Positions 3,759 through 49,031 of a stretch of DNA of 64,000 nucleotides are shown in pieces (position 1 is the stretch's first letter; every line of letters begins with the position of its first letter). Location: the NCBI GenBank assembly GCA_965203005.1, contig CBDBBS010000002.1:3686761-3750760 (forward strand). The letters are read 5' to 3'. The position numbers and the translations under genes were made by a program. The notes beneath the pieces are model-generated. The model searched no databases. It worked only from the letters and a program-made list of their open reading frames with translations, and was not told the DNA's origin. The DNA comes from Dehalococcoidia bacterium. GTDB taxonomy: Bacteria; Chloroflexota; Dehalococcoidia; Lucifugimonadales; UBA3495.

Positions 3759-4058
3759 CTACGTCAACCCGGGGATGTTCATCCCTCCGGTGATGACGCT
3801 CATCTTGCTGGCGGCCATCTCCTGGGCCTTGGTGGCTGCGTCGTTGAAAGCGCCGACCAGCATGTCCTGCAACAGCTCCAGGTCTTCGGCGGCTTCCGGC
3901 TCGATTTCTACTGACTCAACGGCCTGCTTGCCGGTCATCACGATCCTGACCGCGCCGCCGCCTGCGGTCCCGGTAACGGTGAGCGTCTCCAGTTCCTCCT
4001 GGATCTTCTGCAGCTGGGCCAGTTGCCGCTGGGCCTGGCGCATCATGTTGCGGTTCAT
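3759..4058 (-). CDS. ybaB: nucleoid-associated protein YbaB/EbfC
   Basis: 99 aa: MNRNMMRQAQRQLAQLQKIQEEL...GGGAVRIVMTGKQ...AFNDAATKAQE. Classic position after dnaX, with an ATGA overlap. Confidence 0.9.
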   Translation of the reverse strand: MNRNMMRQAQRQLAQLQKIQEELETLTVTGTAGGGAVRIVMTGKQAVESVEIEPEAAEDLELLQDMLVGAFNDAATKAQEMAASKMSVITGGMNIPGLT

Positions 4059-5749
4059 TCGTCCTCGTCCCTAACTTGGATTATTTTGGCGCCCATGCCC
4101 TGGGCGGCGCGGACTAGGGAGCTCTGCTGGGCCGGGTTGGTGGCAGACCCCCCGGACTGCTGTCCGTTCGCCAGGGTTAGCTGGTAATCGCAACCCTCTC
4201 CAAAGGACTGCGTCAGCGCTTCGGTGAGACGCTTGCGGGAGACTGGGTCCTCCAGTTCCTCCTGCATTCGCTCCAGATTGGCCTTGTTCGTGAACGGCAG
4301 TACCAGGGTCTTGTCGTCCAGCGATATGCTGTTGACCTTGCAGTCTCGCAGGAGGGCCCCCAGGTTGTATTTTCTGCCCTTGTGCCGGGAAAGCGCCTTG
4401 ACGGTGTTGTTCCACTGTACCCAGAGATCGTTTGACTCGCCGCCGGTTCGTCCGCTCCCGTCTCCTCTTTGACCCGGGGCCGGGGGCGCCGTCGGCTGGC
4501 TGCGCGCGCCTGCGGAAGCCGGAGCAGGACGTTCACGCTGTGGTGGACGCTCGGGCTGCCGTTCCCGGGGCGGGGGAGCAGGCCGGGGCGCCTGCGACGC
4601 GGGAGCCTGCCGGGCCGTATTGGCCGCGGGGGCCGGCATTGGCGGAGGCGCCTCCGCCACCGGAGCGGGCGCCGCCGATTCCTCGCAGATCTCAACCACG
4701 GCCAGCTCCAGGGGCAGCGTCGACGGCGCGTCATAGCGCATGTTGACCGCTCCCCAAACTTTCAGCGCGTGGACGATCCGCCACGGCGGTTGCTTGCCAA
4801 CCAGCTCCCTGAGCTGAGACTGCACGTGCTCGGGCAGGTCCACGGCGTCTTCAGACCCCCACTGGAGGTGCATGAATCCGCGCAGCAGGTCGCTGGCCTG
4901 CCGGTGCAACTGCCTCAGATCGCTGCCCTCCCAGGCCGCCTGGTTCACAGCAGTCAGCGAGGCAGTGGTGTTGCCCAAGAGCAGGTACTTGACCAGTTCC
5001 AGGGCGGTCTCGTCGCTGCCCAGGCCCAGCAGTTTCTCCACCTGCTGGGCGGTCACCCCGTCGGGGCAGGACACGACCAGTTGCTCCAGCAGGTTCTCGG
5101 CGTCGCGCAAGCTGCCGGAAGCGTACCGTGCCACCATGCGCAAAGCCGCCGGCTCCACCGTGACGCCCTCGGCCTCGGCGATTTCCGCGAGCCGCCCGAA
5201 CACGGTCTCGGAGGGAATGCGGCGGAAATCCAGTCGCTGGCAACGGGAAATGATGGTAGGCAGTATCCGGTGTGCCTCGGTGGTGCAGAGCACGAAGATC
5301 ACATGCTCCGGCGGCTCCTCCAGTGTCTTCAGGAAAGCATTGGAGGCCGCGTCGGTGAGCATGTGGGCCTCATCGATGATATACACCTTGCGGCGGCCCT
5401 GGGCCGGCGCAAAGTTCACCTTGTCGCGAATGTCGCGTATCTCGTCGATGCCCCGGTTGCTGGCCGCGTCCAGCTCGATGATGTCCATGAAACGGCCATC
5501 GCTGATGGCCTGGCACACGTCGCAGGTGTTGCAGGGGTCGCCATCCTGCAAGTCCAGGCAGTTGGCGGCCTTGGCGATGATGCGGGCGGTGGTGGTCTTG
5601 CCGCATCCTCTTGGACCGCAGAAAAGGTAGGAGTGCGAGATGCGCCCCAGGCGCACCGACTGGCGCAACGTGGTCGACACGTGTTCCTGGCCGGCCAGCT
5701 CGCTGAAGCTGGAGGGACGCCACTTGCGATAGTAGACCTGCGACGTCAT
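4055..5749 (-). CDS. dnaX: DNA polymerase III subunit gamma/tau
   Basis: Walker A GPRGCGKTT, Walker B YIIDEAHML, sensor TIISRCQRLDF, then a Pro/Ala-rich linker and a C-terminal domain. Confidence 0.95.
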   Translation of the reverse strand: MTSQVYYRKWRPSSFSELAGQEHVSTTLRQSVRLGRISHSYLFCGPRGCGKTTTARIIAKAANCLDLQDGDPCNTCDVCQAISDGRFMDIIELDAASNRGIDEIRDIRDKVNFAPAQGRRKVYIIDEAHMLTDAASNAFLKTLEEPPEHVIFVLCTTEAHRILPTIISRCQRLDFRRIPSETVFGRLAEIAEAEGVTVEPAALRMVARYASGSLRDAENLLEQLVVSCPDGVTAQQVEKLLGLGSDETALELVKYLLLGNTTASLTAVNQAAWEGSDLRQLHRQASDLLRGFMHLQWGSEDAVDLPEHVQSQLRELVGKQPPWRIVHALKVWGAVNMRYDAPSTLPLELAVVEICEESAAPAPVAEAPPPMPAPAANTARQAPASQAPRPAPPPRERQPERPPQRERPAPASAGARSQPTAPPAPGQRGDGSGRTGGESNDLWVQWNNTVKALSRHKGRKYNLGALLRDCKVNSISLDDKTLVLPFTNKANLERMQEELEDPVSRKRLTEALTQSFGEGCDYQLTLANGQQSGGSATNPAQQSSLVRAAQGMGAKIIQVRDEDE

Positions 5750-5758
5750 GGCGATGGA

Positions 5759-6343
5759 CTACTCCCGTTCGTCCCGAGCCTGTCGGTTCATCCTGAGCCT
5801 GTCGATCATCCTGAGCTTGTCGAAGGACAGCGATTCCAGCGCCTCGCGTTCCAGCGCCTGCATCCGGGCGGTATCATCCGGCCCCAGATGGTCGTATCCG
5901 ATCAGGTGGAGCGCCCCGTGTACCACCAGGTGGGCCAACTCCCGCTCCGGGCTGACACCGTGCTCGACGGCCTGCCGCTGCGCCTGGGGCCACGAGACGA
6001 TTATTTCGCCCAGAGGCTGGGGTATGCCGGGCGGCAGCACGAACTCGGCGTGATCCGGGGTCTCCGGCGGCCCGTCGCCGTCTCCCTCCCAGTGCCCCGG
6101 GTGGCTGGCGGAGAATGAGAGCACGTCGGTCGTATCGTCCAGCCCCCGGTACTCGGCGTTCAGGGCACGGACGGTCTCGTCGCCGGTGATCAGCAGGCTG
6201 ACCTCGGCATCCCCGTCGATGCCTGCTGCCAGCAGTCCTGCCTGTACAGCGCTTTCGAGCCAGTCGGCATCCAGCTCGTCGCCGAACGGCTCATCCAGGG
6301 AAACAAAAACGTGCAGTCCGGACAGGTTGAGCAAGGGAAACAT
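5759..6343 (-). CDS. ybeY: rRNA maturation endoribonuclease YbeY
   Basis: LNAEYRGLDDTTDVLSF and the metal motif HLVVHGALHLIGYDH. The track start at 6406 is a TTG. ATG at 6343 (MFPLLNLSG...) gives the usual length. The last ~20 codons are repeat-derived. Confidence 0.8.
   Translation of the reverse strand: MFPLLNLSGLHVFVSLDEPFGDELDADWLESAVQAGLLAAGIDGDAEVSLLITGDETVRALNAEYRGLDDTTDVLSFSASHPGHWEGDGDGPPETPDHAEFVLPPGIPQPLGEIIVSWPQAQRQAVEHGVSPERELAHLVVHGALHLIGYDHLGPDDTARMQALEREALESLSFDKLRMIDRLRMNRQARDERE
5771..5829. repeat. repeat family C, three tandem degenerate copies inside the ybeY 3' end
   Basis: CCCGAGCCTGTCGG / TCATCCTGAGCCTGTCGA / TCATCCTGAGCTTGTCGAAGGA. These encode the tail ...SFDKLRMIDRLRMNRQARDERE. 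Confidence 0.7.
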
Positions 6344-6430
6344 CTCAATGGTGAGTAGGGGAGCAGGCGGCCCGCCGTTCGGTGGAGCGCCTCTATCATA
6401 ATCCAAAGGCTGGAGTCATTCCAGCACTGA

Positions 6431-7039
6431 TTAGCAGCCTGAGTCATCCTCCACCGGACGGCGGCGGTGACGAAATATGTCGGCCAGCGGGATGGTCAGG
6501 TCAGGGAGCAACGGAGTGGTCAGAGTGTCGTCGGCGGTCAGGACTGCCCGCTCGACGTACTCGCCATCCTGCAGCTCCAGCAAAGTGTCAGTGTCGATAC
6601 GCGGGTCAAAAATCCAGTACTCTGGAACACTCGCAGCTGCATAGGCCTGCCGCTTGCGCACCAAGTCACGGTTGCGGTCGGAGGAGAGGACTTCCACGAC
6701 TATGTCCGGAGAACCCTCCACCCTGCGGTCATTTACCTCCACAGGGTTGTTCCTAAGAACGATGGACAGGTCCGGCGCGAAAAGAACCCGGCGTTCCAGG
6801 GACAGCGCCACGACGAAGTCCGTCATCAGTTTCGCAGGCGGCACGTCGAAACTGTCAAGGTATTGGTCGATGGGGTAAGCCAGCCTGCGTTGAAAGAACC
6901 CGTGAACTCTCCTGGGTCGGGGCATAATGTACAGGACTCCCTCATCCAACTCCATCTTCCGCCGGTCGTCGGTGTCGGGCAGTTCCATGAACTCCTCGAC
7001 CGTGAGCTTCATCCCGGAGCGCGGTTTCAGCATCGTCAT
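6431..7039 (-). CDS. Uma2 (DUF820) family restriction-endonuclease-like protein
   Basis: 202 aa with ...MELDEGVLYIMPRP...SPDIVVEVLSSDRNRDLVRKRQAYAAASVPEYWIFDP..., the typical Uma2 PD-(D/E)xK core. Confidence 0.75.
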   Translation of the reverse strand: MTMLKPRSGMKLTVEEFMELPDTDDRRKMELDEGVLYIMPRPRRVHGFFQRRLAYPIDQYLDSFDVPPAKLMTDFVVALSLERRVLFAPDLSIVLRNNPVEVNDRRVEGSPDIVVEVLSSDRNRDLVRKRQAYAAASVPEYWIFDPRIDTDTLLELQDGEYVERAVLTADDTLTTPLLPDLTIPLADIFRHRRRPVEDDSGC

Positions 7040-39573: not shown

Positions 39574-40737
39574 ATGAAAGACACCATCGAGGTATTCTGG
39601 TTCTCCGAGCAGCCATACGCCCACGTCACGGACGCCGACCTTGAGCAGTACGACTCCGGACGGCTGGGCTTTCCCAACACGTACTTCGACCCCCACAAGG
39701 CCCATGTGCTGTACAACCAGTACCACGAGCAGTACGCGCTGGCCGACGAGGTCGGGTTCGACGGCATCATGTCCAACGAGCACCACGCCTCCTACTGGTG
39801 CATGAAGCCGGCGGTCAACCTGGACGCCGCGGTCATCTCCAAGATCACGAAGAACACCAAGATCGCCATCCTCGGCAACGTGATCGCCGTCAACGACCCC
39901 ATCCGCATGGCCGAGGAAATCGCCATGCTGGACTGCTTCTCCAACGGCCGCATCATCTCCGGGTTCGTGCGCGGTACCGCCGTGGAGAGCCTGACCGGGG
40001 GCATCATCCCCGCCGAGAACCGCGCCCGCTTCGAGGAGGCCCACGACCTGATCATCAAGTGCTGGACCGAGCCGGGCCCCTTCCGCTATGAGGGAAACTT
40101 TTATCACTACCGCGCCGTGAACCCCTGGGTGCTGCCGGTGCAGGACCCGCACCCGCCCATCTGGTTTCCCGGACTCTCCAGCGCCGAGAGCGTGGTCTGG
40201 GCGGCCCGCCACCAGCACCCCTACATGAACCTGGGCTCGCTGCTGGACTACACCGAGGGCCTCAAGGGCGTCTACATCGACACCGCGAAGGAGGTCGGGT
40301 TCACGCCCGGGCCGGAGCATTTCGGCTACCTGCTGCGGGTGTTCTGCGCCGACACCGACGAGAAGGCCCAGGAGATCGGCCAGACCTTCCTGTGGACCGA
40401 GCACCACCGCAACCGCGGCCCTGCCGAGCATAACGACCCGCCGGGCTACCAGTCCCGCGAGGCCGTGCGCATCCAGCGGCAGTTGCCGGGCGCTGGCGGC
40501 TTCGGACGCCGCATGACCTACCAGGAACTGCAGGACGTCGACAATGTCATCGTCGGTAGCCCGGACACTGTGACCCGCAAGCTCTCGAACATCATCGAGC
40601 GCCTGAACCCCGGCTACCTGCACATCTACGGCAACGAGGGCGACATGGACCACGCCGACGTTATGCGCTCGGTGGAACTGCTGGGCAAGGAGGTCATCCC
40701 CGCCCTGCACGAAATCCAGTTGCAGCCCTACGAATAG
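39574..40737 (+). CDS. luciferase-like (LLM class) flavin-dependent oxidoreductase
   Basis: 387 aa. ...ADEVGFDGIMSNEHHAS...IAILGNVIAVNDPIRMAEEIAMLDCFSNGRIISGFVRG.... Confidence 0.85.
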   Translation: MKDTIEVFWFSEQPYAHVTDADLEQYDSGRLGFPNTYFDPHKAHVLYNQYHEQYALADEVGFDGIMSNEHHASYWCMKPAVNLDAAVISKITKNTKIAILGNVIAVNDPIRMAEEIAMLDCFSNGRIISGFVRGTAVESLTGGIIPAENRARFEEAHDLIIKCWTEPGPFRYEGNFYHYRAVNPWVLPVQDPHPPIWFPGLSSAESVVWAARHQHPYMNLGSLLDYTEGLKGVYIDTAKEVGFTPGPEHFGYLLRVFCADTDEKAQEIGQTFLWTEHHRNRGPAEHNDPPGYQSREAVRIQRQLPGAGGFGRRMTYQELQDVDNVIVGSPDTVTRKLSNIIERLNPGYLHIYGNEGDMDHADVMRSVELLGKEVIPALHEIQLQPYE

Positions 40738-40843: not shown

Positions 40844-42007
40844 ATGATCACCAAATTTGACAGCCTGTTCGCTGGCCACGTCGACATGACCAACATCGGC
40901 TACGCCGGCACCGCGGTCAACGACCGCATCTTCGACAACGACCACCTGTCCACCGTGTTTCCCAAGTCCGAGGCCATCGCCAAGACCATGGACGAGAACG
41001 GCTACGACACTATGTGGATGGCCGAGCACCACTTTCAGCCCGAGGGCTATGAGTGCATTCCCAACCTCATCATGCTCAATGTCCACCTGGCTCACCTGAC
41101 CAAGAACCTGAAGTTCGGTTGTGGCTTCAACATCGCCCCCATGTGGAACCCGCTGCGTTTGGCTGAGGACTACGCCACCGCCGACATCCTTACCGGCGGG
41201 CGGGTCATCTTCGGCGTGGGTCGCGGCTATCACACCCGCGAGGTGGAGAGCTTCGGGTCGCCGTTGCAGGACCAGGACGCCAACCGTGAGCTGTTCGAGG
41301 AGCAGGTGGAGATCATTTTCAAGGCGTTCAACGAGGAGTCGTGGTCGCACCAGGGCAAGTACTACACCCTGCCGCCCGAGGTGCCCTACCGGGGTTACAC
41401 GCTCAAGGAGCTGACTTTGGTGCCTCGCCCGCGCACGCTGCCCGTGGAGTGCTGGCAGCCGATCCAGGGCGGAACGCAGCGGGCGCTGGACTTCATGGTC
41501 AAGCACAACATCAAGGGGATCATCGGCGGCGGCGTGGCCGAAGGCGGCGCCATGGACAACGTGATCTACGGCTACCGTGATGCCATGATCCGGGCCGGCC
41601 ACGAGGACCCGGAGCCGGGCACCAACCTCAGTGTCGGCTTCCACTTCCACCTGGCGCCCAGCGTGGAGCAGGCGATGGAGGAGGCCCAGGGGTTTTTCGA
41701 GGAGAACCTCAAGATGTTCGGCCCGCTGCGCCTGAGCCGCCGCCTCTCCGACGAGCAGATCCGCGACATCAGCGATCCGCGCCGCGCGCCCACCGCCGGT
41801 CTGCCCACGATCCAGGGCGCGGTCGAGGGCGGCGCGTTCCTGGCGGGCCCGCCGGAGCGGGTCATCGAGCAGCTGAAGGCCGTCGAGAAAGAGTATCCGG
41901 GCCTCGACCGCGTGGGCGTCAGCCACCCCGTCGGCACCCCCGAAAGCGTGATCACCGAGCAGCTAGAGTGGTTCGCCAAGGAGGTAATGCCGGAGTTCAA
42001 GGGGTAG
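40844..42007 (+). CDS. luciferase-like (LLM class) flavin-dependent oxidoreductase
   Basis: 387 aa. ...ENGYDTMWMAEHHFQPEGYECIPN...FGCGFNIAPMWNPLRLAEDYATADILTGGRVIFGVGRGYH.... Confidence 0.85.
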   Translation: MITKFDSLFAGHVDMTNIGYAGTAVNDRIFDNDHLSTVFPKSEAIAKTMDENGYDTMWMAEHHFQPEGYECIPNLIMLNVHLAHLTKNLKFGCGFNIAPMWNPLRLAEDYATADILTGGRVIFGVGRGYHTREVESFGSPLQDQDANRELFEEQVEIIFKAFNEESWSHQGKYYTLPPEVPYRGYTLKELTLVPRPRTLPVECWQPIQGGTQRALDFMVKHNIKGIIGGGVAEGGAMDNVIYGYRDAMIRAGHEDPEPGTNLSVGFHFHLAPSVEQAMEEAQGFFEENLKMFGPLRLSRRLSDEQIRDISDPRRAPTAGLPTIQGAVEGGAFLAGPPERVIEQLKAVEKEYPGLDRVGVSHPVGTPESVITEQLEWFAKEVMPEFKG

Positions 42008-42113: not shown

Positions 42114-42144
42114 CAACGGCCACCTCCGACAGAGGTGGCCGTTG
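42114..42144 (+). terminator. strong stem-loop after the LLM gene and before the NYN gene
   Basis: CAACGGCCACCTC-cgaca-GAGGTGGCCGTTG is a perfect 13-bp stem, followed by CATTTGT. Confidence 0.5.
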
Positions 42145-42161
42145 CATTTGTAGGACAATTG

Positions 42162-42806
42162 ATGAAGGCTAATGTCTATGTAGACGGTTTCAACCTTTAC
42201 TTCGGCGCATTGAGGGGCACTCCATATAAGTGGCTCGACCTTTCGTCGATATGCAAAAGGCTGCTACCAAATCGCGAGATAAACAGAATCAGGTATTTCA
42301 CAGCTCGTGTATCGCCCCTGCCGCATAATCCGGATGCTCCGGATAGGCAGGATGCCTACATCAGAGCTTTGGAAACACTCCCTGATGTTACTGTTCATTT
42401 TGGAAGATTCTCGTCACACCCGGCTTACGCTCCTGTTTTTCCGCTGGTATACCCAGCCTTGAATCGGCCTGCCCGAACAGTGCGAGTTCTCAAGACAGAG
42501 GAGAAGCGGTCTGATGTGAACCTGGCCACTCTAATGATGGTTGATTGCGTTGACGACGATGTTGATGAGGTTGTGGTTATATCCAACGATTCGGACCTCT
42601 TGTTGCCAATCGAACTTGCAGCCACCAGATTTGGGATGGTTGTAGGCGTAATCAGCCCGCATCGCCGCACCAATATCAGCGTCGAACTATTACAGGCTGC
42701 CACGTGGACTTACAAGACCATCAACCGCAGCGTGCTGGCTGCCAGTCAGTTTCCCGACGTTGTCCAGCACCTCCGAGGTCCCATCACCAAGCCAGCCTCC
42801 TGGTAG
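42162..42806 (+). CDS. NYN-domain (LabA/PIN-like) protein
   Basis: MKANVYVDGFNLYFG...EEKRSDVNLA...VVVISNDSDLLLPIE. These are the NYN acidic motifs. ATG at 42162 lies after the hairpin. Visibly A/T-richer than its neighbours. Confidence 0.7.
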   Translation: MKANVYVDGFNLYFGALRGTPYKWLDLSSICKRLLPNREINRIRYFTARVSPLPHNPDAPDRQDAYIRALETLPDVTVHFGRFSSHPAYAPVFPLVYPALNRPARTVRVLKTEEKRSDVNLATLMMVDCVDDDVDEVVVISNDSDLLLPIELAATRFGMVVGVISPHRRTNISVELLQAATWTYKTINRSVLAASQFPDVVQHLRGPITKPASW

Positions 42807-42904
42807 CCTTCTGCCCTCCGCGTTGACACTCCCAAGTGCCCGCCGTACACTCGCTAGCGGAAATCGTACAGGCGTTTCCAGACTTGGATGGGCGAATTCT
42901 GATA

Positions 42905-43936
42905 ATGCTTTCTACCGAGATTAACGACGCCATCGAGTTGATGTTCGAGACCGGCTGGACCGACGGGCTGCCCGTGGTGCCGCCGTCAGAGGACCTGGTG
43001 CGCCGGTTCGTTGCCCACACCGGACGTAATGGCGACGAACTGATCGCCGAATTGCCTCCCCTTGGTGGCCGGGCCACGGTCGAGCGCATTGCTGTCAACG
43101 CCGTGATGGCGGGTTGCCTGCCCGAGCACATGCCCGTGGTCATCACTGCCCTGCAGGCCATGATGGACGAGCGCTTCAACCTGCGCGGCGTGATGTGCTC
43201 CACCGGCATCCACACGCCGCTGCTCATCGTCAACGGGCCGGTGGTGCAGGACTTGGACATCAACGGCGGCTACAACTGCTTCGGCGCTGGCTGGCGGGCC
43301 AATGCCACCATCGGTCGCGCCGTCAAGCTGGCGCTGGTCAACCTGGGCGGCGCAATCCCGGGCGAGACCAACAAGGCTACCTTCGGCCATCCGGGGGCTT
43401 ACACCTACTGCGTCGCCGAGGATGAGCCGGCCAACCCCTGGATGCCCATGCACGTCGAGATGGGTTACGCCGCCACTGATAGCACGGTAACGGTGTTCCC
43501 CGCCGAGGCGCCGCACAACATCATGTACCACGCATCCAACTCCCGGGACTTCCTGACCGTGCTGGCCGATACCATGTGCACCCTGGGAAACGTGCAGATG
43601 TACGTGATGGGCGACACTTTCGTGGCCATCGGCCCGGAGCACGCCAAGTTCCTGCACGCAGACGGGTGGAACAAGCGGGACATCCGGCAGTTTCTGTTCG
43701 AGCACGCCCGCAAGCCGGTGCGCAAGCTTAAACACGGAGGCCCACCGCAGGGCGACGCCCGGCGTGGCCACTTCTGGCCCCGTTTCATCGACTCCGAGGA
43801 CGACGACCAGATGGTGCCGGTTGTGCGAGCGCCCGACCGCATCCATATCTTCGTGGCCGGAGGCGCCGGTGGCCCCCACTCGGTCTATCTGCCGGGCTGG
43901 GGCTCCCGCGCCGTAACCCGGAAGATTGAATTGTGA
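42905..43936 (+). CDS. conserved-looking protein of unknown function, upstream partner of the UGSC gene
   Basis: 343 aa from ATG at 42905 (the track start is 42836). ...ETGWTDGLPVVPPSEDLV...ATVERIAVNAVMAGCLPEHMP...NGPVVQDLDINGG...RANATIGRAVKLALVNLGG.... I recognise no named domain. Confidence 0.6.
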   Translation: MLSTEINDAIELMFETGWTDGLPVVPPSEDLVRRFVAHTGRNGDELIAELPPLGGRATVERIAVNAVMAGCLPEHMPVVITALQAMMDERFNLRGVMCSTGIHTPLLIVNGPVVQDLDINGGYNCFGAGWRANATIGRAVKLALVNLGGAIPGETNKATFGHPGAYTYCVAEDEPANPWMPMHVEMGYAATDSTVTVFPAEAPHNIMYHASNSRDFLTVLADTMCTLGNVQMYVMGDTFVAIGPEHAKFLHADGWNKRDIRQFLFEHARKPVRKLKHGGPPQGDARRGHFWPRFIDSEDDDQMVPVVRAPDRIHIFVAGGAGGPHSVYLPGWGSRAVTRKIEL

Positions 43937-44017: not shown

Positions 44018-44032
44018 AGAGGTGAGAGAAAA

Positions 44033-44590
44033 ATGACCGCAACCAATGTTGAAGAACGCCTGCGGCTGATGGGACTGATGAGTCCCGTCGACCCCGATGC
44101 CGCCAACCGCTGGCGGCCCGCGCCCCGGCTGGACACGCTGCACGGCAAGGTCGGCGGGTTCCTGGGCAATCGCAAGGCCAACGCCGCCCTGCTGCTGAGC
44201 GATGTTCGCGAGCTGCTGGACCGGGACATGGAGTTGGGCGATTCGCTGACGGTGGACAAGTACGTCTACTCCCGCCCGGCTGCCGACGACATCATCGAGG
44301 AATTGGCGACGAGCTGCGATTTCGTGGTGACCGCCATCGCTGATTGAGGGTCCTGCACCGCGTGCAGTGTGCACGACGCAATGACCCTCGAGAACCGGGG
44401 CGTCCCCACGGTGGTGCTGTGCACGGATCCGTTCCTGAACTCGGCATTCCGCCACGCCAACACCTTCGGCCGCCGGGACTTCCGGCCCCTTGGCTTTCCG
44501 CACCCGCTGGGCGGTCTGAAGCCGGAGCAGGTGGCGCTACGCGCCAGCGAACTGGAGCAGGCGGTGATCGACGTCCTGACGACGTACTAA
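44033..44590 (+). CDS. UGSC-family selenoprotein (in-frame UGA at 44345-44347 read as selenocysteine)
   Basis: Track fragments 44033..44347 and 44369..44590 share one frame. Read-through gives ...CDFVVTAIAD-U-GSC-TACSVHDAMTLENRGVPTVVLCTDPF.... The stem CTGCAC-cgc-GTGCAG (44353-44367) starts 6 nt after the TGA. Confidence 0.7.
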
Positions 44591-44635: not shown

Positions 44636-44863
44636 ATGACAATGAGCAACGAGGAACGAATAGCGCGTCTTGAAGCCGGATACGAGCATCTGGCGACCAA
44701 GGCTGACGTGGAAAACCTGCGATCTGACTTCAAAACGGACATAAGGGCGGCTCAAGCGGAGACAACTCGCCGGATAGACCGGCTGTTCTGGGCGATAGTG
44801 GGGATCGGCGGCGGGCTGCTGGCCGTCGCTGCCGCCGCCTTGATACGGGACACGCTGGTCTGA
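44636..44863 (+). CDS. small coiled-coil protein with a C-terminal TM anchor
   Basis: 75 aa: ...RIARLEAGYEHLATKADVENLRSDFK...RLFWAIVGIGGGLLAVAAAALI.... Confidence 0.5.
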   Translation: MTMSNEERIARLEAGYEHLATKADVENLRSDFKTDIRAAQAETTRRIDRLFWAIVGIGGGLLAVAAAALIRDTLV

Positions 44864-44966: not shown

Positions 44967-45860
44967 ATGGCAACCGTTGGCAAGGGCAAATACACATACG
45001 AGCTGGTCCCCGACTGGGAAAAGCTGCCCGAGGGATGGGTCCTGGGGCAGACGGCCATCGTCACCGACAAGCAGGACCGGGTCTACCTCTTCAACCGCGG
45101 CGAGCACCCGTTGATAGTCCTCGACCGCGACGGCAATTTCCTCGTGTCGTGGGGCGAAGGACAGCTCCCCGACGCCCACGGTATGTACATCGACGGCGAC
45201 GAAAACCTGTATATGCCGGTCAAGAACAGCCACGTCGTGCTCAAGTACGACCCCAAGGGCAACCTGCTGATGACCATGGGCGAGTGGGACAAGCCCTCCG
45301 ACACCGGCTGGTCGGGGCGATACAGCGATGTCGTCGAGCGCGCCGCCGGCCCGTTCAACAGCCCCAGCGATATCGCCATCCACCCCAACGGCGACCTGTT
45401 CATTTCCGACGGCTACGGCAACGCCCGGGTGCACCGATTCACCAATGACGGCAATTTGATCGAGTCGTGGGGTCAGCCCGGCAAGACGGGACATGGCGAG
45501 TTTCACGTGCCCCACGGCGTCTGGGTGCATACCGACGGGCGGGTGTTCGTAGCCGACCGCGAAAACAACCGCATCCAGATCTTCGATGATCGCGGCAATT
45601 TCCTGGAGCAGTGGCTGGGACTGGCCCGTCCCTGCGACATCTACATCGACGGCGATGAGGCCCTGTACGTTCCAGAGTTGGATGGATTTATGACCATCCT
45701 GGACATGGATGGGGATATCCTCGCCCGCTGGGGCAGCCCCGTAGAGGTAGAGCACGGGCAGGGCGCCCATGCCGTGTGGGTGGACTCCCACGGCGACATC
45801 TACGTCAACCAGAACCTTGAGGGCCACCGGCTGGTCAAGTACCGCCACGTTGGCGCGTAA
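44967..45860 (+). CDS. NHL-repeat six-bladed propeller protein (peptidyl-alpha-hydroxyglycine lyase-like)
   Basis: Repeated ...PHGVWVHTDGRVFVADRENNRIQIFDDRGNFL..., ...PSDIAIHPNGDLFISDGYGNARVHRF.... Confidence 0.75.
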   Translation: MATVGKGKYTYELVPDWEKLPEGWVLGQTAIVTDKQDRVYLFNRGEHPLIVLDRDGNFLVSWGEGQLPDAHGMYIDGDENLYMPVKNSHVVLKYDPKGNLLMTMGEWDKPSDTGWSGRYSDVVERAAGPFNSPSDIAIHPNGDLFISDGYGNARVHRFTNDGNLIESWGQPGKTGHGEFHVPHGVWVHTDGRVFVADRENNRIQIFDDRGNFLEQWLGLARPCDIYIDGDEALYVPELDGFMTILDMDGDILARWGSPVEVEHGQGAHAVWVDSHGDIYVNQNLEGHRLVKYRHVGA

Positions 45861-45990: not shown

Positions 45991-47004
45991 ATGCGCATAG
46001 GCTACCAGGTCGGCCATGTCGTCCACCGTGATTCCATTGATCACCAGCAGCAGTGGCAGAACCATCTGGAACAGTTCCGGGCGTCGCGGGACGCAGGGTT
46101 CGACATCTATTGCTGGGGCCATCACTACCTTATCGACCCCTTCCAGCATTTCCAGCCCTGGCCGGTGCTGGCGCGGTTGGCGGCCGAATCTGGGGATATG
46201 ACGCTTGCCACGTCGATACTGCTCCTGCCCCTCCTGAACCCCGTGGACGTGGCGGAACAGGCCGCGACACTGGACCACATCGCGGAAGGGCGCTTCGTAT
46301 TGGGCATAGGGCTGGGATACCGGCCCGAAGAGTTCGAGGCCTTCGGCGTTGGCATGTCGGAGCGTGGCGCGCGTTGCACCGAGGCCATGCACCTGATGCG
46401 CCGGCTGTGGAGCGAGGATGAGGTTACTCACCACGGACGCTTTTTCAACGTAACCCGCGCTAAACCCACGGCCCGGCCCTACCAGAAGCCGTATCCCAAG
46501 GTATGGCAAGCGGCCATGAGTGATCCGGCCATCCGGCGCGTCGCCCGCGAGGGTGAAATCCTGTACGTCGGCCCGGCCCAGTCCAACGAGTCCATTCGCC
46601 ACCAGATCGACCTGTACCACCGTACCCTGGAGGAGTACGGACGTGAGAGACCCGAGGACATGGTCATCGTCCGCGAGTTCTACTGCGCTCCGACCCGCGA
46701 GGAGGCCCTTACCAGGGCGCAGGCCAATTTCGCCACCAAGTACGAGGTTTACGCCCAGCATGGCCTGCACGGCACAGACGGCGAGCTGACTCGCAAGGTC
46801 ACCGGGGATCTCGAGTCGCTGATGGACGACACTTTCCTGGTGGGCAGCCCGGAGGAGTGTATCGAGCAGATCGCCGTCTACCACGAGATGGGATTCACTG
46901 ACGTTGCCATCCGGCTGTTCTACCCCGAAATGTCGCAGAGCGAGGTGCTGGAGCATATCGACCTTGTTGGCAAAGAGGTAATCCCGGCGCTCCACGCCCT
47001 CTAG
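45991..47004 (+). CDS. luciferase-like (LLM class) flavin/F420-dependent oxidoreductase
   Basis: 337 aa. ...LLLPLLNPVDVAEQAATLDHIAEGRFVLGIGLGYRPEEFEAFGV.... Confidence 0.85.
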   Translation: MRIGYQVGHVVHRDSIDHQQQWQNHLEQFRASRDAGFDIYCWGHHYLIDPFQHFQPWPVLARLAAESGDMTLATSILLLPLLNPVDVAEQAATLDHIAEGRFVLGIGLGYRPEEFEAFGVGMSERGARCTEAMHLMRRLWSEDEVTHHGRFFNVTRAKPTARPYQKPYPKVWQAAMSDPAIRRVAREGEILYVGPAQSNESIRHQIDLYHRTLEEYGRERPEDMVIVREFYCAPTREEALTRAQANFATKYEVYAQHGLHGTDGELTRKVTGDLESLMDDTFLVGSPEECIEQIAVYHEMGFTDVAIRLFYPEMSQSEVLEHIDLVGKEVIPALHAL

Positions 47005-47846: not shown

Positions 47847-49031
47847 ATGACTATCCAGAACGCCATGCTCACCATCGGGGACTACGAGGCCCGCGCCAAG
47901 GAGACCATGCCGAAGGCCCTGTTCGACCGGCTTTTCGGCGACCTGGATGCCCACGATTGGACTACCAACACTGCCAACGTCCGTGCCATGGAGGCCGTCA
48001 AGCTGCGTCCCCGCGTCCTGGTCGACGTCAGCGACATCGATACCTCCACGGAGGTGCTGGGTCAGCGTATCAGCCTTCCGGTAATGCTGGCCCCGACGGG
48101 CACGCACCAGAGGGCTCATCCCGCCGGAGAGCTCGCGTCCGCTCGGGCTGCGGCGGCAGCCGACACCATCATGGGCTTGAGCACGGCCTCCAGCTACAGC
48201 ATCGAGGAGGTGGCCGGGGTCGCCGAGAACCCGCTGTGGTTCCAGTTGTATTTCTTCCAGGACCGGGAGCTTACCGAAATCCTGGTGCGCCGCGCCGAAA
48301 ACGCCGGTTACACCGCCATGATGCTGACGGTGGACAACCTGGGCGCCAACTCCAGGGAACGCGAATACCGCTACGCATACGTCCTGGACCAGGAGCGAAT
48401 TCTCAAGAACTTTGACGGCATCGAGCTGCCCAATCTGCCCAACCAGGGCAATTTCGCCGAGAGCTTTGAGCACTCACTGAACTGGCGGGACCTGGAGTGG
48501 CTGCGGTCGATTACGTCCATGCCCCTGGTGATCAAGGGGATTCAGACCGCCGAGGACGCCCGTCTCTGCGCCGACAACGGCTGCGAGGCCCTGGTGGTCT
48601 CCAACCACGGCGGACACGCGCTCCAGGGCACCGCTGGCTCCATAGACATGCTGCCGTCCATCGCCGACGCGGTGGGAGACCGCCTGGAGGTCTACTTCGA
48701 TGGCGGAGTCCGCAGAGGGACAGACGTACTCAAGGCATTGGCCTTCGGCGCCAGGGCCACGTTCGTGGGCCGTCCCATATTCTGGGGCTTGTCTGTCGCC
48801 GGCGAGGACGGCGTGCGGCATTGCATTGAAATTCTGCGCCAGGAACTGAGGGTGGCCATGGGACTGTGCGGGGTGACCGACGCCCGCAGGGTTGATCGCT
48901 CCGTGGCCGAGGACCCGGCGGCCAGCGCGGCATCCGTGGTCGGCGATCTGGAGCGACTGGCCCGCCTGCTGGAGCAGGGCTACCTCACCCGCGAGGAATT
49001 CGAGACACAGAAGGCCCGCCTGCTGGGGTAG
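47847..49031 (+). CDS. FMN-dependent alpha-hydroxy-acid oxidase/dehydrogenase (LldD/glycolate oxidase family) with a C-terminal SHOCT domain
   Basis: ...PVMLAPTG...WFQLYF...TVD...VVSNHGGHALQG...FVGRPIFWGL.... The last ~30 aa DLERLARLLEQGYLTREEFETQKARLLG match the SHOCT pattern. Confidence 0.8.
   Translation: MTIQNAMLTIGDYEARAKETMPKALFDRLFGDLDAHDWTTNTANVRAMEAVKLRPRVLVDVSDIDTSTEVLGQRISLPVMLAPTGTHQRAHPAGELASARAAAAADTIMGLSTASSYSIEEVAGVAENPLWFQLYFFQDRELTEILVRRAENAGYTAMMLTVDNLGANSREREYRYAYVLDQERILKNFDGIELPNLPNQGNFAESFEHSLNWRDLEWLRSITSMPLVIKGIQTAEDARLCADNGCEALVVSNHGGHALQGTAGSIDMLPSIADAVGDRLEVYFDGGVRRGTDVLKALAFGARATFVGRPIFWGLSVAGEDGVRHCIEILRQELRVAMGLCGVTDARRVDRSVAEDPAASAASVVGDLERLARLLEQGYLTREEFETQKARLLG

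What the first reader, a model, noticed from the sequence alone, without database searches (positions are those of the whole stretch)
44033..44590. Hidden selenoprotein: in-frame UGA gives a literal U-G-S-C motif, with a hairpin where a SECIS would sit
The ORF track shows two fragments in the same frame: 44033..44347 (ending ...CDFVVTAIAD) and 44369..44590. Only a TGA at 44345-44347 separates them. Read-through gives ...VVTAIAD-U-GSC-TACSVHDAMTLENRGVPTVVLCTDPF... for a 185-aa product. UGSC is exactly the motif that names the 'UGSC family (seleno)protein'. UxxC after a hydrophobic strand is the selenocysteine version of a thioredoxin-style CxxC redox centre. A 6-bp GC stem CUGCAC-cgc-GUGCAG (44353-44367) begins 6 nt after the UGA. 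Standard gene callers would truncate or split this gene. It sits in an oxidoreductase-rich neighbourhood, and I know of no described function for the family.
Basis: partly seen in the sequence, partly recalled or inferred. Interest (0 to 1): 0.8.

Follow-up and report, generated by a model that had tools for sequence, protein, structure and literature searches.

The report
UGSC selenoprotein gene with conserved partner
The in-frame TGA is a real selenocysteine codon in a SAR202-type bacterium's copy of the already known UGSC selenoprotein family, so the finding is correct but not new; the useful extra is that this protein of unknown function always travels with one uncharacterised partner gene.

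Summary
One TGA (44345-44347) splits a single 185-codon frame (44033-44590). The read-through product passes the curated UGSC models across the TGA (NF041046 127.8 bits, cut-off 125; PF24696 E=4e-45).

All 80 related Dehalococcoidia/SAR202 species loci carry TGA at this codon. In 79 the frame continues under purifying selection. Cys-form homologues place Cys exactly at the TGA.

A 24-nt block after the TGA is frozen even at synonymous sites. It holds a hairpin (44361-44375, apical loop G-U-G, 19 nt after UGA) that fits the published bacterial SECIS model and recurs in five lineages, with one compensatory change.

UGSC has been a known marine selenoprotein family of unknown function since 2007-2008, so this is a new member of a known kind.

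Additional results:
- A high-confidence model of a Cys-form homologue has a flavodoxin-like fold, not a thioredoxin fold.
- UGSC is adjacent to an unannotated ~345-aa protein (42902-43936) in 79/80 loci and 15/15 plasmid records across Bacteria and Archaea. The two are fused in three genomes.
- Thioredoxin reductase is often next to the pair.

Selenocysteine machinery could not be checked in 64 kb.

The parts
44033..44590 (+). Complete UGSC-family selenoprotein coding sequence (185 codons, with Sec at codon 105)
   Evidence: Translation. NF041046 127.8 bits against cut-off 125, profile 6-147/147. PF24696 E=4e-45, profile 4-171/172. 79/80 orthologous loci keep the whole frame.
44019..44024 (+). 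Shine-Dalgarno-like GAGGTG, 8 nt upstream of the ATG at 44033
   Evidence: Read directly from the sequence. Not tested further.
44345..44347 (+). In-frame TGA read as selenocysteine
   Evidence: TGA in 80/80 species loci, never TAA, TAG or a sense codon. Also TGA in Tectimicrobiota, another Chloroflexi, Paracoccus and Acidovorax. It aligns with the invariant Cys of Cys forms. TGA is a normal stop for neighbouring genes.
44354..44377 (+). 24-nt block UGCACCGCGUGCAGUGUGCACGAC with almost no synonymous variation (an RNA element overlapping the coding sequence)
   Evidence: Synonymous entropy is 0-0.29 bits for codons +3..+10 (GCG 77/77, AGT 76/76, GTG 68/68), against about 1.1-1.4 for flanking four-fold codons.
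44361..44375 (+). Best SECIS candidate: 6-bp stem CGUGCA/UGCACG with apical loop G-U-G at nt 23-25 from the U of UGA. A lower stem, UGC 44354-44356 with GCA 44378-44380, is possible.
   Evidence: Chosen by single-sequence and consensus folding. Fits the bSECIS model of PMC13188914: loop 3 nt, G first, spacing 19 nt, -9.0 kcal/mol with the lower stem. The same loop position occurs in five lineages. Compensatory C21-G27 to G21-C27; 97.6% of cells paired.
44353..44367 (+).
   Evidence: It is as well conserved as the other hairpin within SAR202 (99.2%). Its loop lies only 11 nt after the UGA. It degrades to G-U pairs in Tectimicrobiota and Chloroflexi, and pair 11-21 breaks in proteobacteria.
42902..43936 (+). 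Conserved partner gene, about 344 aa (the ORF can also start at GTG 42836), with no Pfam or NCBIfam family
   Evidence: No family hit. At least 7,999 homologues, all named hypothetical. Immediately upstream of UGSC in 79/80 loci at 73-98% identity. Adjacent in 15/15 UGSC-bearing plasmid records. Fused to UGSC in Sporomusa, Vibrio and Variovorax.
44967..45860 (+). NHL-repeat beta-propeller gene. It is a conserved downstream neighbour in the SAR202 clade only (context, not shown to belong to the module).
   Evidence: PF01436. Present in 79/80 loci. Not seen next to the pair in other phyla.
45991..47004 (+). LLM-class flavin-dependent oxidoreductase, a recurrent neighbour (context)
   Evidence: PF00296 E=1e-62. 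Present in 74/80 loci. 33% identical (E=8e-50) to the LLM gene in the Halorientalis UGSC cluster. An LLM gene is also present in the Haladaptatus cluster.

Best explanation
Window 44033-44590 is one gene for a 185-residue selenoprotein of the known UGSC family, in a Dehalococcoidia/SAR202-type Chloroflexota genome.

Recoding. The UGA at 44345-44347 is recoded to selenocysteine by a bacterial SECIS lying inside the coding sequence. The best candidate is the stem-loop at 44361-44375, whose apical G-U-G loop sits 19 nt after the UGA. By analogy with characterised systems, it would recruit SelB carrying Sec-tRNA(Sec).

Protein. By a model of a 39%-identical Cys-form homologue, the protein is a flavodoxin-like alpha/beta domain. 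The [U/C]-G-S-C motif lies at the end of a beta-strand and the start of a helix, so Sec105 and Cys108 can form a selenenylsulfide redox pair.

Partner. UGSC works with the product of the adjacent gene (42902-43936), an uncharacterised ~345-aa protein with two invariant cysteines. Most likely the two form a two-subunit redox enzyme.

Inferred step. The Sec-Cys pair is re-reduced by a thioredoxin-reductase-type system, and the substrate is a small organic acid imported and processed by the neighbouring catabolic genes.

Shown here: a single translated frame, conserved TGA, a conserved RNA element, family membership, Cys/Sec equivalence, and partner linkage and fusion.
Inferred: SelB-dependent decoding, formation of a complex, redox chemistry, electron donor and substrate class.

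Confidence by step: genuine Sec-decoding gene 0.93; functional unit with the partner 0.8; thioredoxin-linked reductase chemistry 0.35. The overall figure of 0.9 refers to the core claim, a genuine UGSC selenoprotein gene.
For: Single gene and family membership:
- The read-through product passes NF041046 (127.8 against 125 bits) and PF24696 (E=4e-45) across the TGA, while each half alone fails the cut-off.

Conservation:
- 80/80 loci have TGA and 79/80 keep the frame.
- Downstream column entropy by codon position is 0.26/0.15/0.76, with 783 synonymous against 379 non-synonymous codon differences.
- Cys forms read D-C-GSC where the window reads D-U-GSC.
- About 119 of the 150 representative clusters end in ...D exactly at this position.

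Not a reassigned codon:
- TGA ends the partner and MFS genes, and 8 other supported genes have no internal TGA.

SECIS:
- Synonymous sites are frozen at +10..+33.
- The element fits the bSECIS criteria of PMC13188914.
- A G-U-N loop at nt 23-25 occurs in five lineages, with a compensatory pair.

Fold:
- pLDDT 95 model, with flavodoxin-like hits at probability about 1.0 and TM 0.4-0.5.

Partner:
- Synteny in 79/80 loci.
- Adjacent in Tectimicrobiota and another Chloroflexi with unrelated flanks.
- 15/15 plasmid records across Archaea, Alpha- and Betaproteobacteria and Actinobacteria, in either gene order.
- Three fusion proteins.

Redox link:
- trxB or a TrxB-like gene lies next to the pair in Roseovarius, Arthrobacter (with trxA) and two Variovorax.
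- There are recurrent weak hits to the Sec region of GrdB/GrdF/GrdH/PrdB in 8 of 18 diverse members.

Literature:
- UGSC is an accepted selenoprotein family (PMC1976440, PMC2398784, PMC13188914).
Against: - No selA, selB, selD or tRNA-Sec was found in the 64-kb window or the fetched flanks. This is uninformative rather than negative.
- There is no direct proof of selenium incorporation.
- Within SAR202 the two overlapping hairpins are equally conserved and show no covariation. The single compensatory change may be one evolutionary event shared by two proteobacteria (17/500 shuffles).
- The bare 15-nt hairpin is only -6.3 kcal/mol.
- The UGSC structure is a model of a 39%-identical Cys homologue, not of the window protein.
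- The GrdB similarity is far below the curated cut-offs, and Pfam GRDB is not hit.
- The Sporomusa fusion has lost the redox motif (D-M-G-T-S), so the domain is not always redox-active.
- No trxB or trxA lies in the window.
- The partner's fold gives no functional clue.
Confidence: 0.9

Rival explanations
1. The reader's hairpin (44353-44367, loop CGC) is the functional SECIS, or both overlapping hairpins are used as alternative conformations, and hairpin 44361-44375 is not the SelB site.
For: In isolation it is marginally more stable, -6.5 against -6.3 kcal/mol. PMC13188914 notes that some bacterial SECIS elements do not fit the consensus model.
Against: Its loop lies 11 nt after the UGA, outside the 16-37 nt of the model, and has no G[G/U] at the loop start (PMC13188914). 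In Tectimicrobiota and another Chloroflexi it falls to four G-U pairs out of six. Pair 11-21 is broken in Paracoccus and Acidovorax, whose compensatory change fits the other hairpin. MFE folding picks the other hairpin in all five lineages.
Confidence: 0.12
2. The UGA is read through as an ordinary amino acid (Cys, Trp or Gly) by near-cognate or suppressor decoding, without the selenocysteine machinery.
For: Sec machinery genes were not seen. Cys can functionally occupy this position in homologues.
Against: A conserved SECIS-type hairpin sits at canonical spacing with frozen synonymous sites. TGA is kept in every one of 80 or more species although one mutation to TGC/TGT would give Cys. The family is accepted as a selenoprotein in organisms that have Sec machinery (PMC1976440, PMC2398784). 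TGA acts as a normal stop in neighbouring genes.
Confidence: 0.04
3. The locus encodes two separate polypeptides: a 104-aa product ending at the TGA, and a 73-aa product starting at GTG 44369. They assemble after translation.
For: Gene callers predict exactly these two ORFs in many genomes.
Against: The seven codons between the TGA and the GTG (GSCTACS), including the motif Cys, are conserved as protein although they would be untranslated. Only TGA is ever used. Cys forms and fusions are continuous through this point. The break falls at a strand-to-helix junction inside one compact domain. No ribosome-binding site precedes 44369.
Confidence: 0.03
4. The TGA is a nonsense mutation, pseudogene or sequencing error.
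For: Isolated defective copies do exist: L048 has a deletion or frameshift just after GSCT, and P0012 is a frameshifted call.
Against: The identical TGA occurs in 80/80 independent assemblies, many of them complete chromosomes, with purifying selection on both sides.
Confidence: 0.01

Closest known systems
UGSC family (seleno)protein (NCBIfam NF041046, Pfam PF24696; the 'UGSC-containing protein' of Zhang and Gladyshev 2007/2008)
   Same: It passes both curated models over their full length. It has the [U/C]-G-S-C motif at the invariant position, a size of about 185 aa, predominance of Sec over Cys forms, and a marine/aquatic distribution (PMC2398784 reports 255 Sec against 21 Cys forms in GOS).
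   Different: Nothing essential differs. This SAR202 clade adds a third Cys (U-G-S-C-T-A-C) that is not conserved family-wide. The literature guessed a thioredoxin-like fold, whereas the model here is flavodoxin-like.
Selenoprotein B of glycine/sarcosine/betaine/D-proline reductases (GrdB, GrdF, GrdH, PrdB; TIGR01917, TIGR01918, TIGR04483)
   Same: Both have a UxxC motif (PMC2398784 lists PrdB as UxxC). There is weak but recurrent local similarity of the Sec-bearing region (residues about 83-161 against profile 324-397 of 431) in 8 of 18 diverse UGSC proteins. Both have a separately encoded protein partner. Thioredoxin system genes lie nearby in several genomes; from general knowledge, grd operons also carry trxB and trxA.
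   Different: Scores are far below the cut-offs (19 against 602 bits; 17 against 65). Pfam GRDB is not hit. UGSC is 185 aa, not about 430 aa. The partner shows no similarity to GrdE/PrdA or any curated family. No GrdA-like second selenoprotein was seen. UGSC occurs in aerobes and haloarchaea.
Thioredoxin-fold UxxC/CxxC oxidoreductases (Trx-like, Prx-like and DsbA-like selenoproteins)
   Same: The redox-type UxxC motif sits after a hydrophobic beta-strand at a helix N-terminus.
   Different: The fold is flavodoxin-like. No thioredoxin-fold structure appears among the top 50 PDB matches, and there are no Trx-family Pfam or NCBIfam hits.
Escherichia coli fdhF-type bacterial SECIS
   Same: It lies in the coding sequence directly after the UGA, and is a short stem-loop with a G-U start to the apical loop about 20 nt downstream (model in PMC13188914).
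   Different: The sequence is unrelated. The loop is only 3 nt. No bulged U is evident. SelB binding is untested.

Membership tests
UGSC family (NF041046 / PF24696) | Whole-protein score at or above the curated cut-off | tested here: met
   NF041046 127.8 bits against cut-off 125. PF24696 154.4 bits against 25. Met only when the TGA is read through: the halves score 34.2 and 72.3 bits.
UGSC family (NF041046 / PF24696) | [U/C]-G-S-C motif at the conserved position, with the alignment spanning it | tested here: met
   The profile match 6-147/147 spans residue 105. Columns 105-107 are invariant and 108 nearly so in 18 diverse members.
UGSC family (NF041046 / PF24696) | Cys-containing homologues place Cys at the Sec codon | tested here: met
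   Natrinema, Roseovarius, Arthrobacter, Variovorax and eight representative clusters read D/A-C-G-S-C.
Bacterial selenoprotein gene (SelB/SECIS-dependent UGA recoding) | In-frame UGA conserved among orthologues, with a translated downstream region | tested here: met
   80/80 TGA, 79/80 frame kept, and third-position-dominated variation.
Bacterial selenoprotein gene (SelB/SECIS-dependent UGA recoding) | bSECIS model: apical loop 3-9 nt, upper stem 4-16 bp, G in the first two loop positions, 16-37 nt from the UGA, MFE at or below -7.5 kcal/mol (PMC13188914) | tested here: met
Hairpin 44361-44375 has loop GUG, a 6-bp stem and 19-nt spacing. Energy is -9.0 kcal/mol with the lower stem and -23.6 in the window context. 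The bare 15-nt hairpin is -6.3.
Bacterial selenoprotein gene (SelB/SECIS-dependent UGA recoding) | Genome encodes SelA, SelB, SelD and tRNA-Sec | not testable with these tools
   None found in the 64-kb window or in about 90 fetched flanks.
Bacterial selenoprotein gene (SelB/SECIS-dependent UGA recoding) | Selenium actually incorporated at the UGA | not testable with these tools
   Needs 75Se labelling or mass spectrometry.
Thioredoxin-fold oxidoreductases | Thioredoxin fold | tested here: not met
   A pLDDT-95 model of Cys-form homologue P0364 matches flavodoxin-like folds only.
Selenoprotein B family (GrdB/PrdB) | Score above the family cut-off and full-length architecture | tested here: not met
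   TIGR01917 19 bits against 602. TIGR01918 17.1 against 65.45. Only a local match to profile positions 324-397. Pfam GRDB is not hit.
Selenoprotein B family (GrdB/PrdB) | Pyruvoyl-forming partner proprotein (GrdE/PrdA) | tested here: not met
   The partner has no NCBIfam or Pfam hit at E up to 1 and no PDB relative. Self-cleavage was not tested.

The most novel reading that the evidence does not exclude
UGSC and its invariably linked ~345-aa partner form a widespread, uncharacterised two-subunit (sometimes fused) seleno- or thiol-enzyme of a new type. It would be a distant cousin of the substrate-specific selenoprotein B of glycine/proline reductases, recharged by a thioredoxin-reductase-type system. 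It would act on an imported organic acid in the catabolic clusters of SAR202, haloarchaea and proteobacteria. This would assign a function to one of the most abundant marine selenoprotein families and define a new protein family with at least 8,000 members and no Pfam entry.
Probability: 0.3. Interest if true: 0.6.

Novelty: new member of a known kind. Interest (0 to 1): 0.33.

Why it matters
As a selenoprotein call this is routine. The family is curated and NCBI's pipeline names it, although the gene is still split in nearly all public MAG protein sets, so annotations of SAR202 genomes miss it.

The wider value is as a lead to function. UGSC is among the most abundant selenoproteins in ocean metagenomes and has had no function for nearly 20 years (PMC1976440, PMC2398784, PMC13188914). 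The strict pairing and occasional fusion with one uncharacterised protein family, the frequent thioredoxin reductase neighbour, and a flavodoxin-like rather than thioredoxin-like fold together give a concrete, testable two-protein system.

Tried and rejected
- The long window hairpin GAGGGUC...GACCCUC (z = -3.9) is not conserved in other loci. I rejected it as part of the SECIS.
- Covariation within SAR202 cannot separate the two hairpins, because there are no compensatory changes. More distant lineages were needed.
- Rfam has no hit at the locus.
- tblastn with E. coli SelA, SelB and SelD against the window and all loci found nothing.
- A scan for other TGA-interrupted frames in the window found nothing convincing.
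- A search for close Cys forms returned only C-terminal fragments. P0012 (187 aa) is a frameshifted call, not a Cys form.
- The read-through sequence could not be submitted to the exhaustive search or the structure predictor. I used the exact N-terminal fragment and a Cys-form homologue instead.
- PDB sequence searches for UGSC, its profile and the partner found nothing meaningful.
- The fold search of the partner gave only low-TM matches (class-I fumarate hydratase, TM 0.21-0.29), which I rejected as evidence of function.
- The GOS supplement figure of the UGSC/Unknown_1 fusion is held only as an image, so its identity with the partner family is inferred from the fusions found here.
- No trxB, trxA, CoA-transferase or DUF6282 gene lies in the window.

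Full report
OBSERVATION. An ATG at 44033, preceded by GAGGTG 8 nt upstream, opens a frame. The frame reaches TGA at 44345-44347 after 104 codons (...CDFVVTAIAD). It then continues as GSCTACSVHDAMTLENRGVPTVVLCTDPF... to TAA at 44588-44590, giving 185 codons with the motif D-U-G-S-C-T-A-C. The hairpin CUGCAC-cgc-GUGCAG is at 44353-44367.

IS IT ONE TRANSLATED GENE? With the TGA read as Cys, the product scores 127.8 bits on NCBIfam NF041046 'UGSC family (seleno)protein' (cut-off 125; profile 6-147 of 147). It gives E=4e-45 on Pfam PF24696 (profile 4-171 of 172). The two halves alone score 34 and 72 bits.

A scan of one genome per species returned 80 loci, all Dehalococcoidia/SAR202/Chloroflexota MAGs, at 64-96% identity. 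All 80 have TGA at this exact codon, never TAA, TAG or a sense codon. In 79 the frame continues for about 80 conserved residues. L048 carries a deletion or frameshift.

Downstream of the TGA the column entropy by codon position is 0.26/0.15/0.76. There are 783 synonymous against 379 non-synonymous codon differences, so the region is translated.

TGA is not reassigned in this genome. It terminates the partner and MFS genes, and eight other family-supported genes have no internal TGA.

Cys-form homologues in Natrinema, Roseovarius, Arthrobacter and Variovorax, and in eight representative clusters, read D/A-C-G-S-C at the same column. In an exhaustive search with the N-terminal fragment, about 119 of the best 150 clusters at 50% identity end in ...D exactly at this position, so they are Sec forms cut by gene callers. 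Only about 10 are full-length Cys forms. No close relative has Cys.

THE SECIS. Codons +3 to +10 after the TGA (TGC ACC GCG TGC AGT GTG CAC GAC; 44354-44377) show almost no synonymous variation across 78 distinct sequences. Examples are GCG 77/77, the rare AGT 76/76 and GTG 68/68. Flanking four-fold codons have 1.1-1.4 bits. That is the signature of an RNA element overlapping the coding sequence.

The block holds two mutually exclusive 6-bp hairpins:
- Hairpin B: nt 17-22/26-31, loop G23-U24-G25 (44361-44375), with a possible lower stem 10-12/34-36.

Within SAR202 both are paired in 99.2% of cells with no compensatory change, and their energies are equal. The long outer stem of the window's MFE fold is not conserved.

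Three lines favour B.
(i) The published bSECIS model requires a 3-9 nt apical loop, a 4-16 bp stem, G in the first two loop positions, 16-37 nt between UGA and loop, and MFE at or below -7.5 kcal/mol (PMC13188914). B meets it: 19 nt spacing, GU loop start, -9.0 kcal/mol with the lower stem. A's loop is only 11 nt from the UGA.
(ii) In Ca. Tectimicrobiota and a distant Chloroflexi, B is kept (CGUGCA-GUU-UGCACG; CGUGCA-GUC-UGCGCG). A falls to four G-U pairs.
(iii) In the TGA forms of Paracoccus and Acidovorax, the codons differ (UGG AGU GUC). MFE folding still puts a G-U-G loop at nt 23-25. Pair C21-G27 has become G21-C27, which is compensatory for B and breaks pair 11-21 of A.

The compensatory change may be a single event, so I put B at about 0.85 against A.

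SEC MACHINERY. The window has only a tRNA-Glu. E. coli SelA, SelB and SelD find nothing in the window or the flanks.

WHAT IS KNOWN. 'UGSC-containing protein' was reported as a selenoprotein of unknown function in Hyphomonas and the Olavius symbiont (PMC1976440). [quoted passage not shown] A fusion to a domain called Unknown_1 was noted (PMC2398784). The 2026 review still lists it without a function (PMC13188914). So the kind is known, and this is a SAR202 member of it.

FOLD. The read-through sequence could not be submitted. I therefore modelled a 39%-identical full-length Cys form (P0364) with a 74-row alignment, obtaining mean pLDDT 95. The model is a three-layer alpha/beta domain, with the C-G-S-C motif between strand 104-110 and helix 113-128. 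PDB matches are lumazine synthase, WrbA, MsuE and flavodoxin cores (probability about 1.0, TM 0.4-0.5). No thioredoxin fold is among the top 50.

Eight of 18 diverse UGSC proteins give sub-threshold hits to GrdB (best E=1.7e-4), and others hit GrdF, GrdH and PrdB, always over the Sec-bearing region. No other family recurs. Pfam GRDB is not hit. This is a lead to remote homology, not membership.

THE PARTNER. The upstream gene (42902-43936; the ORF starts at 42836) has no Pfam or NCBIfam family and no PDB relative by sequence. It has at least 7,999 homologues, all 'hypothetical'.

Evidence that it is linked to UGSC:
- It lies immediately upstream of UGSC in 79/80 loci at 73-98% identity.
- It lies next to a split UGSC in Tectimicrobiota and another Chloroflexi, whose other neighbours are unrelated.
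- All 15 plasmid records with a UGSC hit have it adjacent, in haloarchaea, Alpha- and Betaproteobacteria and Actinobacteria, in either order.
- Haloarchaea show partner-UGSC-partner.
- In Sporomusa termitida, Vibrio europaeus and Variovorax boronicumulans the two are one polypeptide. This is probably the Unknown_1 fusion. The motif is intact in Variovorax (A-C-G-S-C) but lost in Sporomusa (D-M-G-T-S).

The partner model (pLDDT 81) has no confident structural match. Its conserved motifs include GWTDGLPVVPP, NAVMAGC and RANATIGR, and it has two invariant cysteines.

CONTEXT. Thioredoxin reductase or a TrxB-like gene is next to the pair in Roseovarius, Arthrobacter (with trxA), Variovorax SRS16 and V. 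boronicumulans. TRAP, TTT, TAXI or MFS transporters, CaiB-type CoA-transferase, CoA-ester lyase, DUF6282 and LLM oxidoreductases recur.

The window has three LLM genes, an FMN-dependent dehydrogenase, an MFS transporter and an NHL protein. It has no trxB, trxA or CoA-transferase.

MECHANISM. Shown: one translated frame, conserved UGA, a conserved SECIS-type element, family membership, Cys/Sec equivalence, and partner linkage and fusion. Inferred:
- SelB-dependent Sec insertion (0.93).
- A UGSC-partner enzyme complex (0.8).
- A Sec105/Cys108 selenenylsulfide cycle re-reduced by a thioredoxin-type system, acting on an organic acid (0.35).

VERDICT. The finding is a correct identification of a known selenoprotein family, with the SECIS hairpin and the fold analogy corrected. 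Novelty is low for the finding itself. The partner linkage is a modestly interesting lead to function.

Noticed in passing
window 42902-43936 (+): A protein family with at least 7,999 homologues across Bacteria and Archaea has no Pfam or NCBIfam model and no confident structural relative. It has motifs GWTDGLPVVPP, NAVMAGC and RANATIGR and two invariant cysteines.
   Followed up: partly
L090:3281-5005 (Sporomusa termitida pSPTER); L091:3383-5068 (Vibrio europaeus): These are UGSC-partner fusion proteins. In Sporomusa the redox motif is degenerate (D-M-G-T-S). Both sit next to aconitase X plus DUF126 genes, so the UGSC domain may also have a non-redox, structural role.
   Followed up: partly
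L094 (Halorientalis) 3863-6525; L095 (Halalkalicoccus) 3837-6536: Haloarchaeal clusters carry two partner paralogues flanking the Cys-form UGSC gene (partner-UGSC-partner).
   Followed up: no
window 44342-44344: The codon before the UGA is invariably GAT (78/78), although GAC is the preferred Asp codon elsewhere in the gene. In Tectimicrobiota it is GAC and in Paracoccus AAC. This may be a local context effect on UGA decoding.
   Followed up: no
L048 (JAGWBI010000036.1) just after the TGA: One of the 80 loci has lost about 29 nt, including the SECIS hairpin, and shifts frame after GSCT. It is either a pseudogene or an assembly error.
   Followed up: no
L008 and L009 (both OZ244112.1, at about 0.10 Mb and 4.00 Mb): The same locus appears twice in one 4.03-Mb chromosome, with identical match statistics. 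This could be a large duplication or redundant assembly of a circular genome.
   Followed up: no
window 39574-40737, 40844-42007, 45991-47004, 47847-49031: There are three luciferase-like (LLM) flavin oxidoreductase genes and an FMN-dependent dehydrogenase with a C-terminal SHOCT domain within 10 kb. This matches the SAR202 habit of expanded flavin monooxygenase families (general knowledge).
   Followed up: partly
window 44345-44390: The window has a strong long hairpin (GAGGGUC...GACCCUC, -23.6 kcal/mol, z = -3.9) that includes the UGA. Its outer stem is not conserved in relatives.
   Followed up: yes
window 42135-42806 (+); 44636-44863 (+): An NYN-domain (predicted RNase) gene lies just upstream of the partner gene and is present in only 17/80 loci. 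A 75-aa ORF with a predicted C-terminal hydrophobic stretch lies just downstream of UGSC and is present in only 8/80 loci.
   Followed up: no
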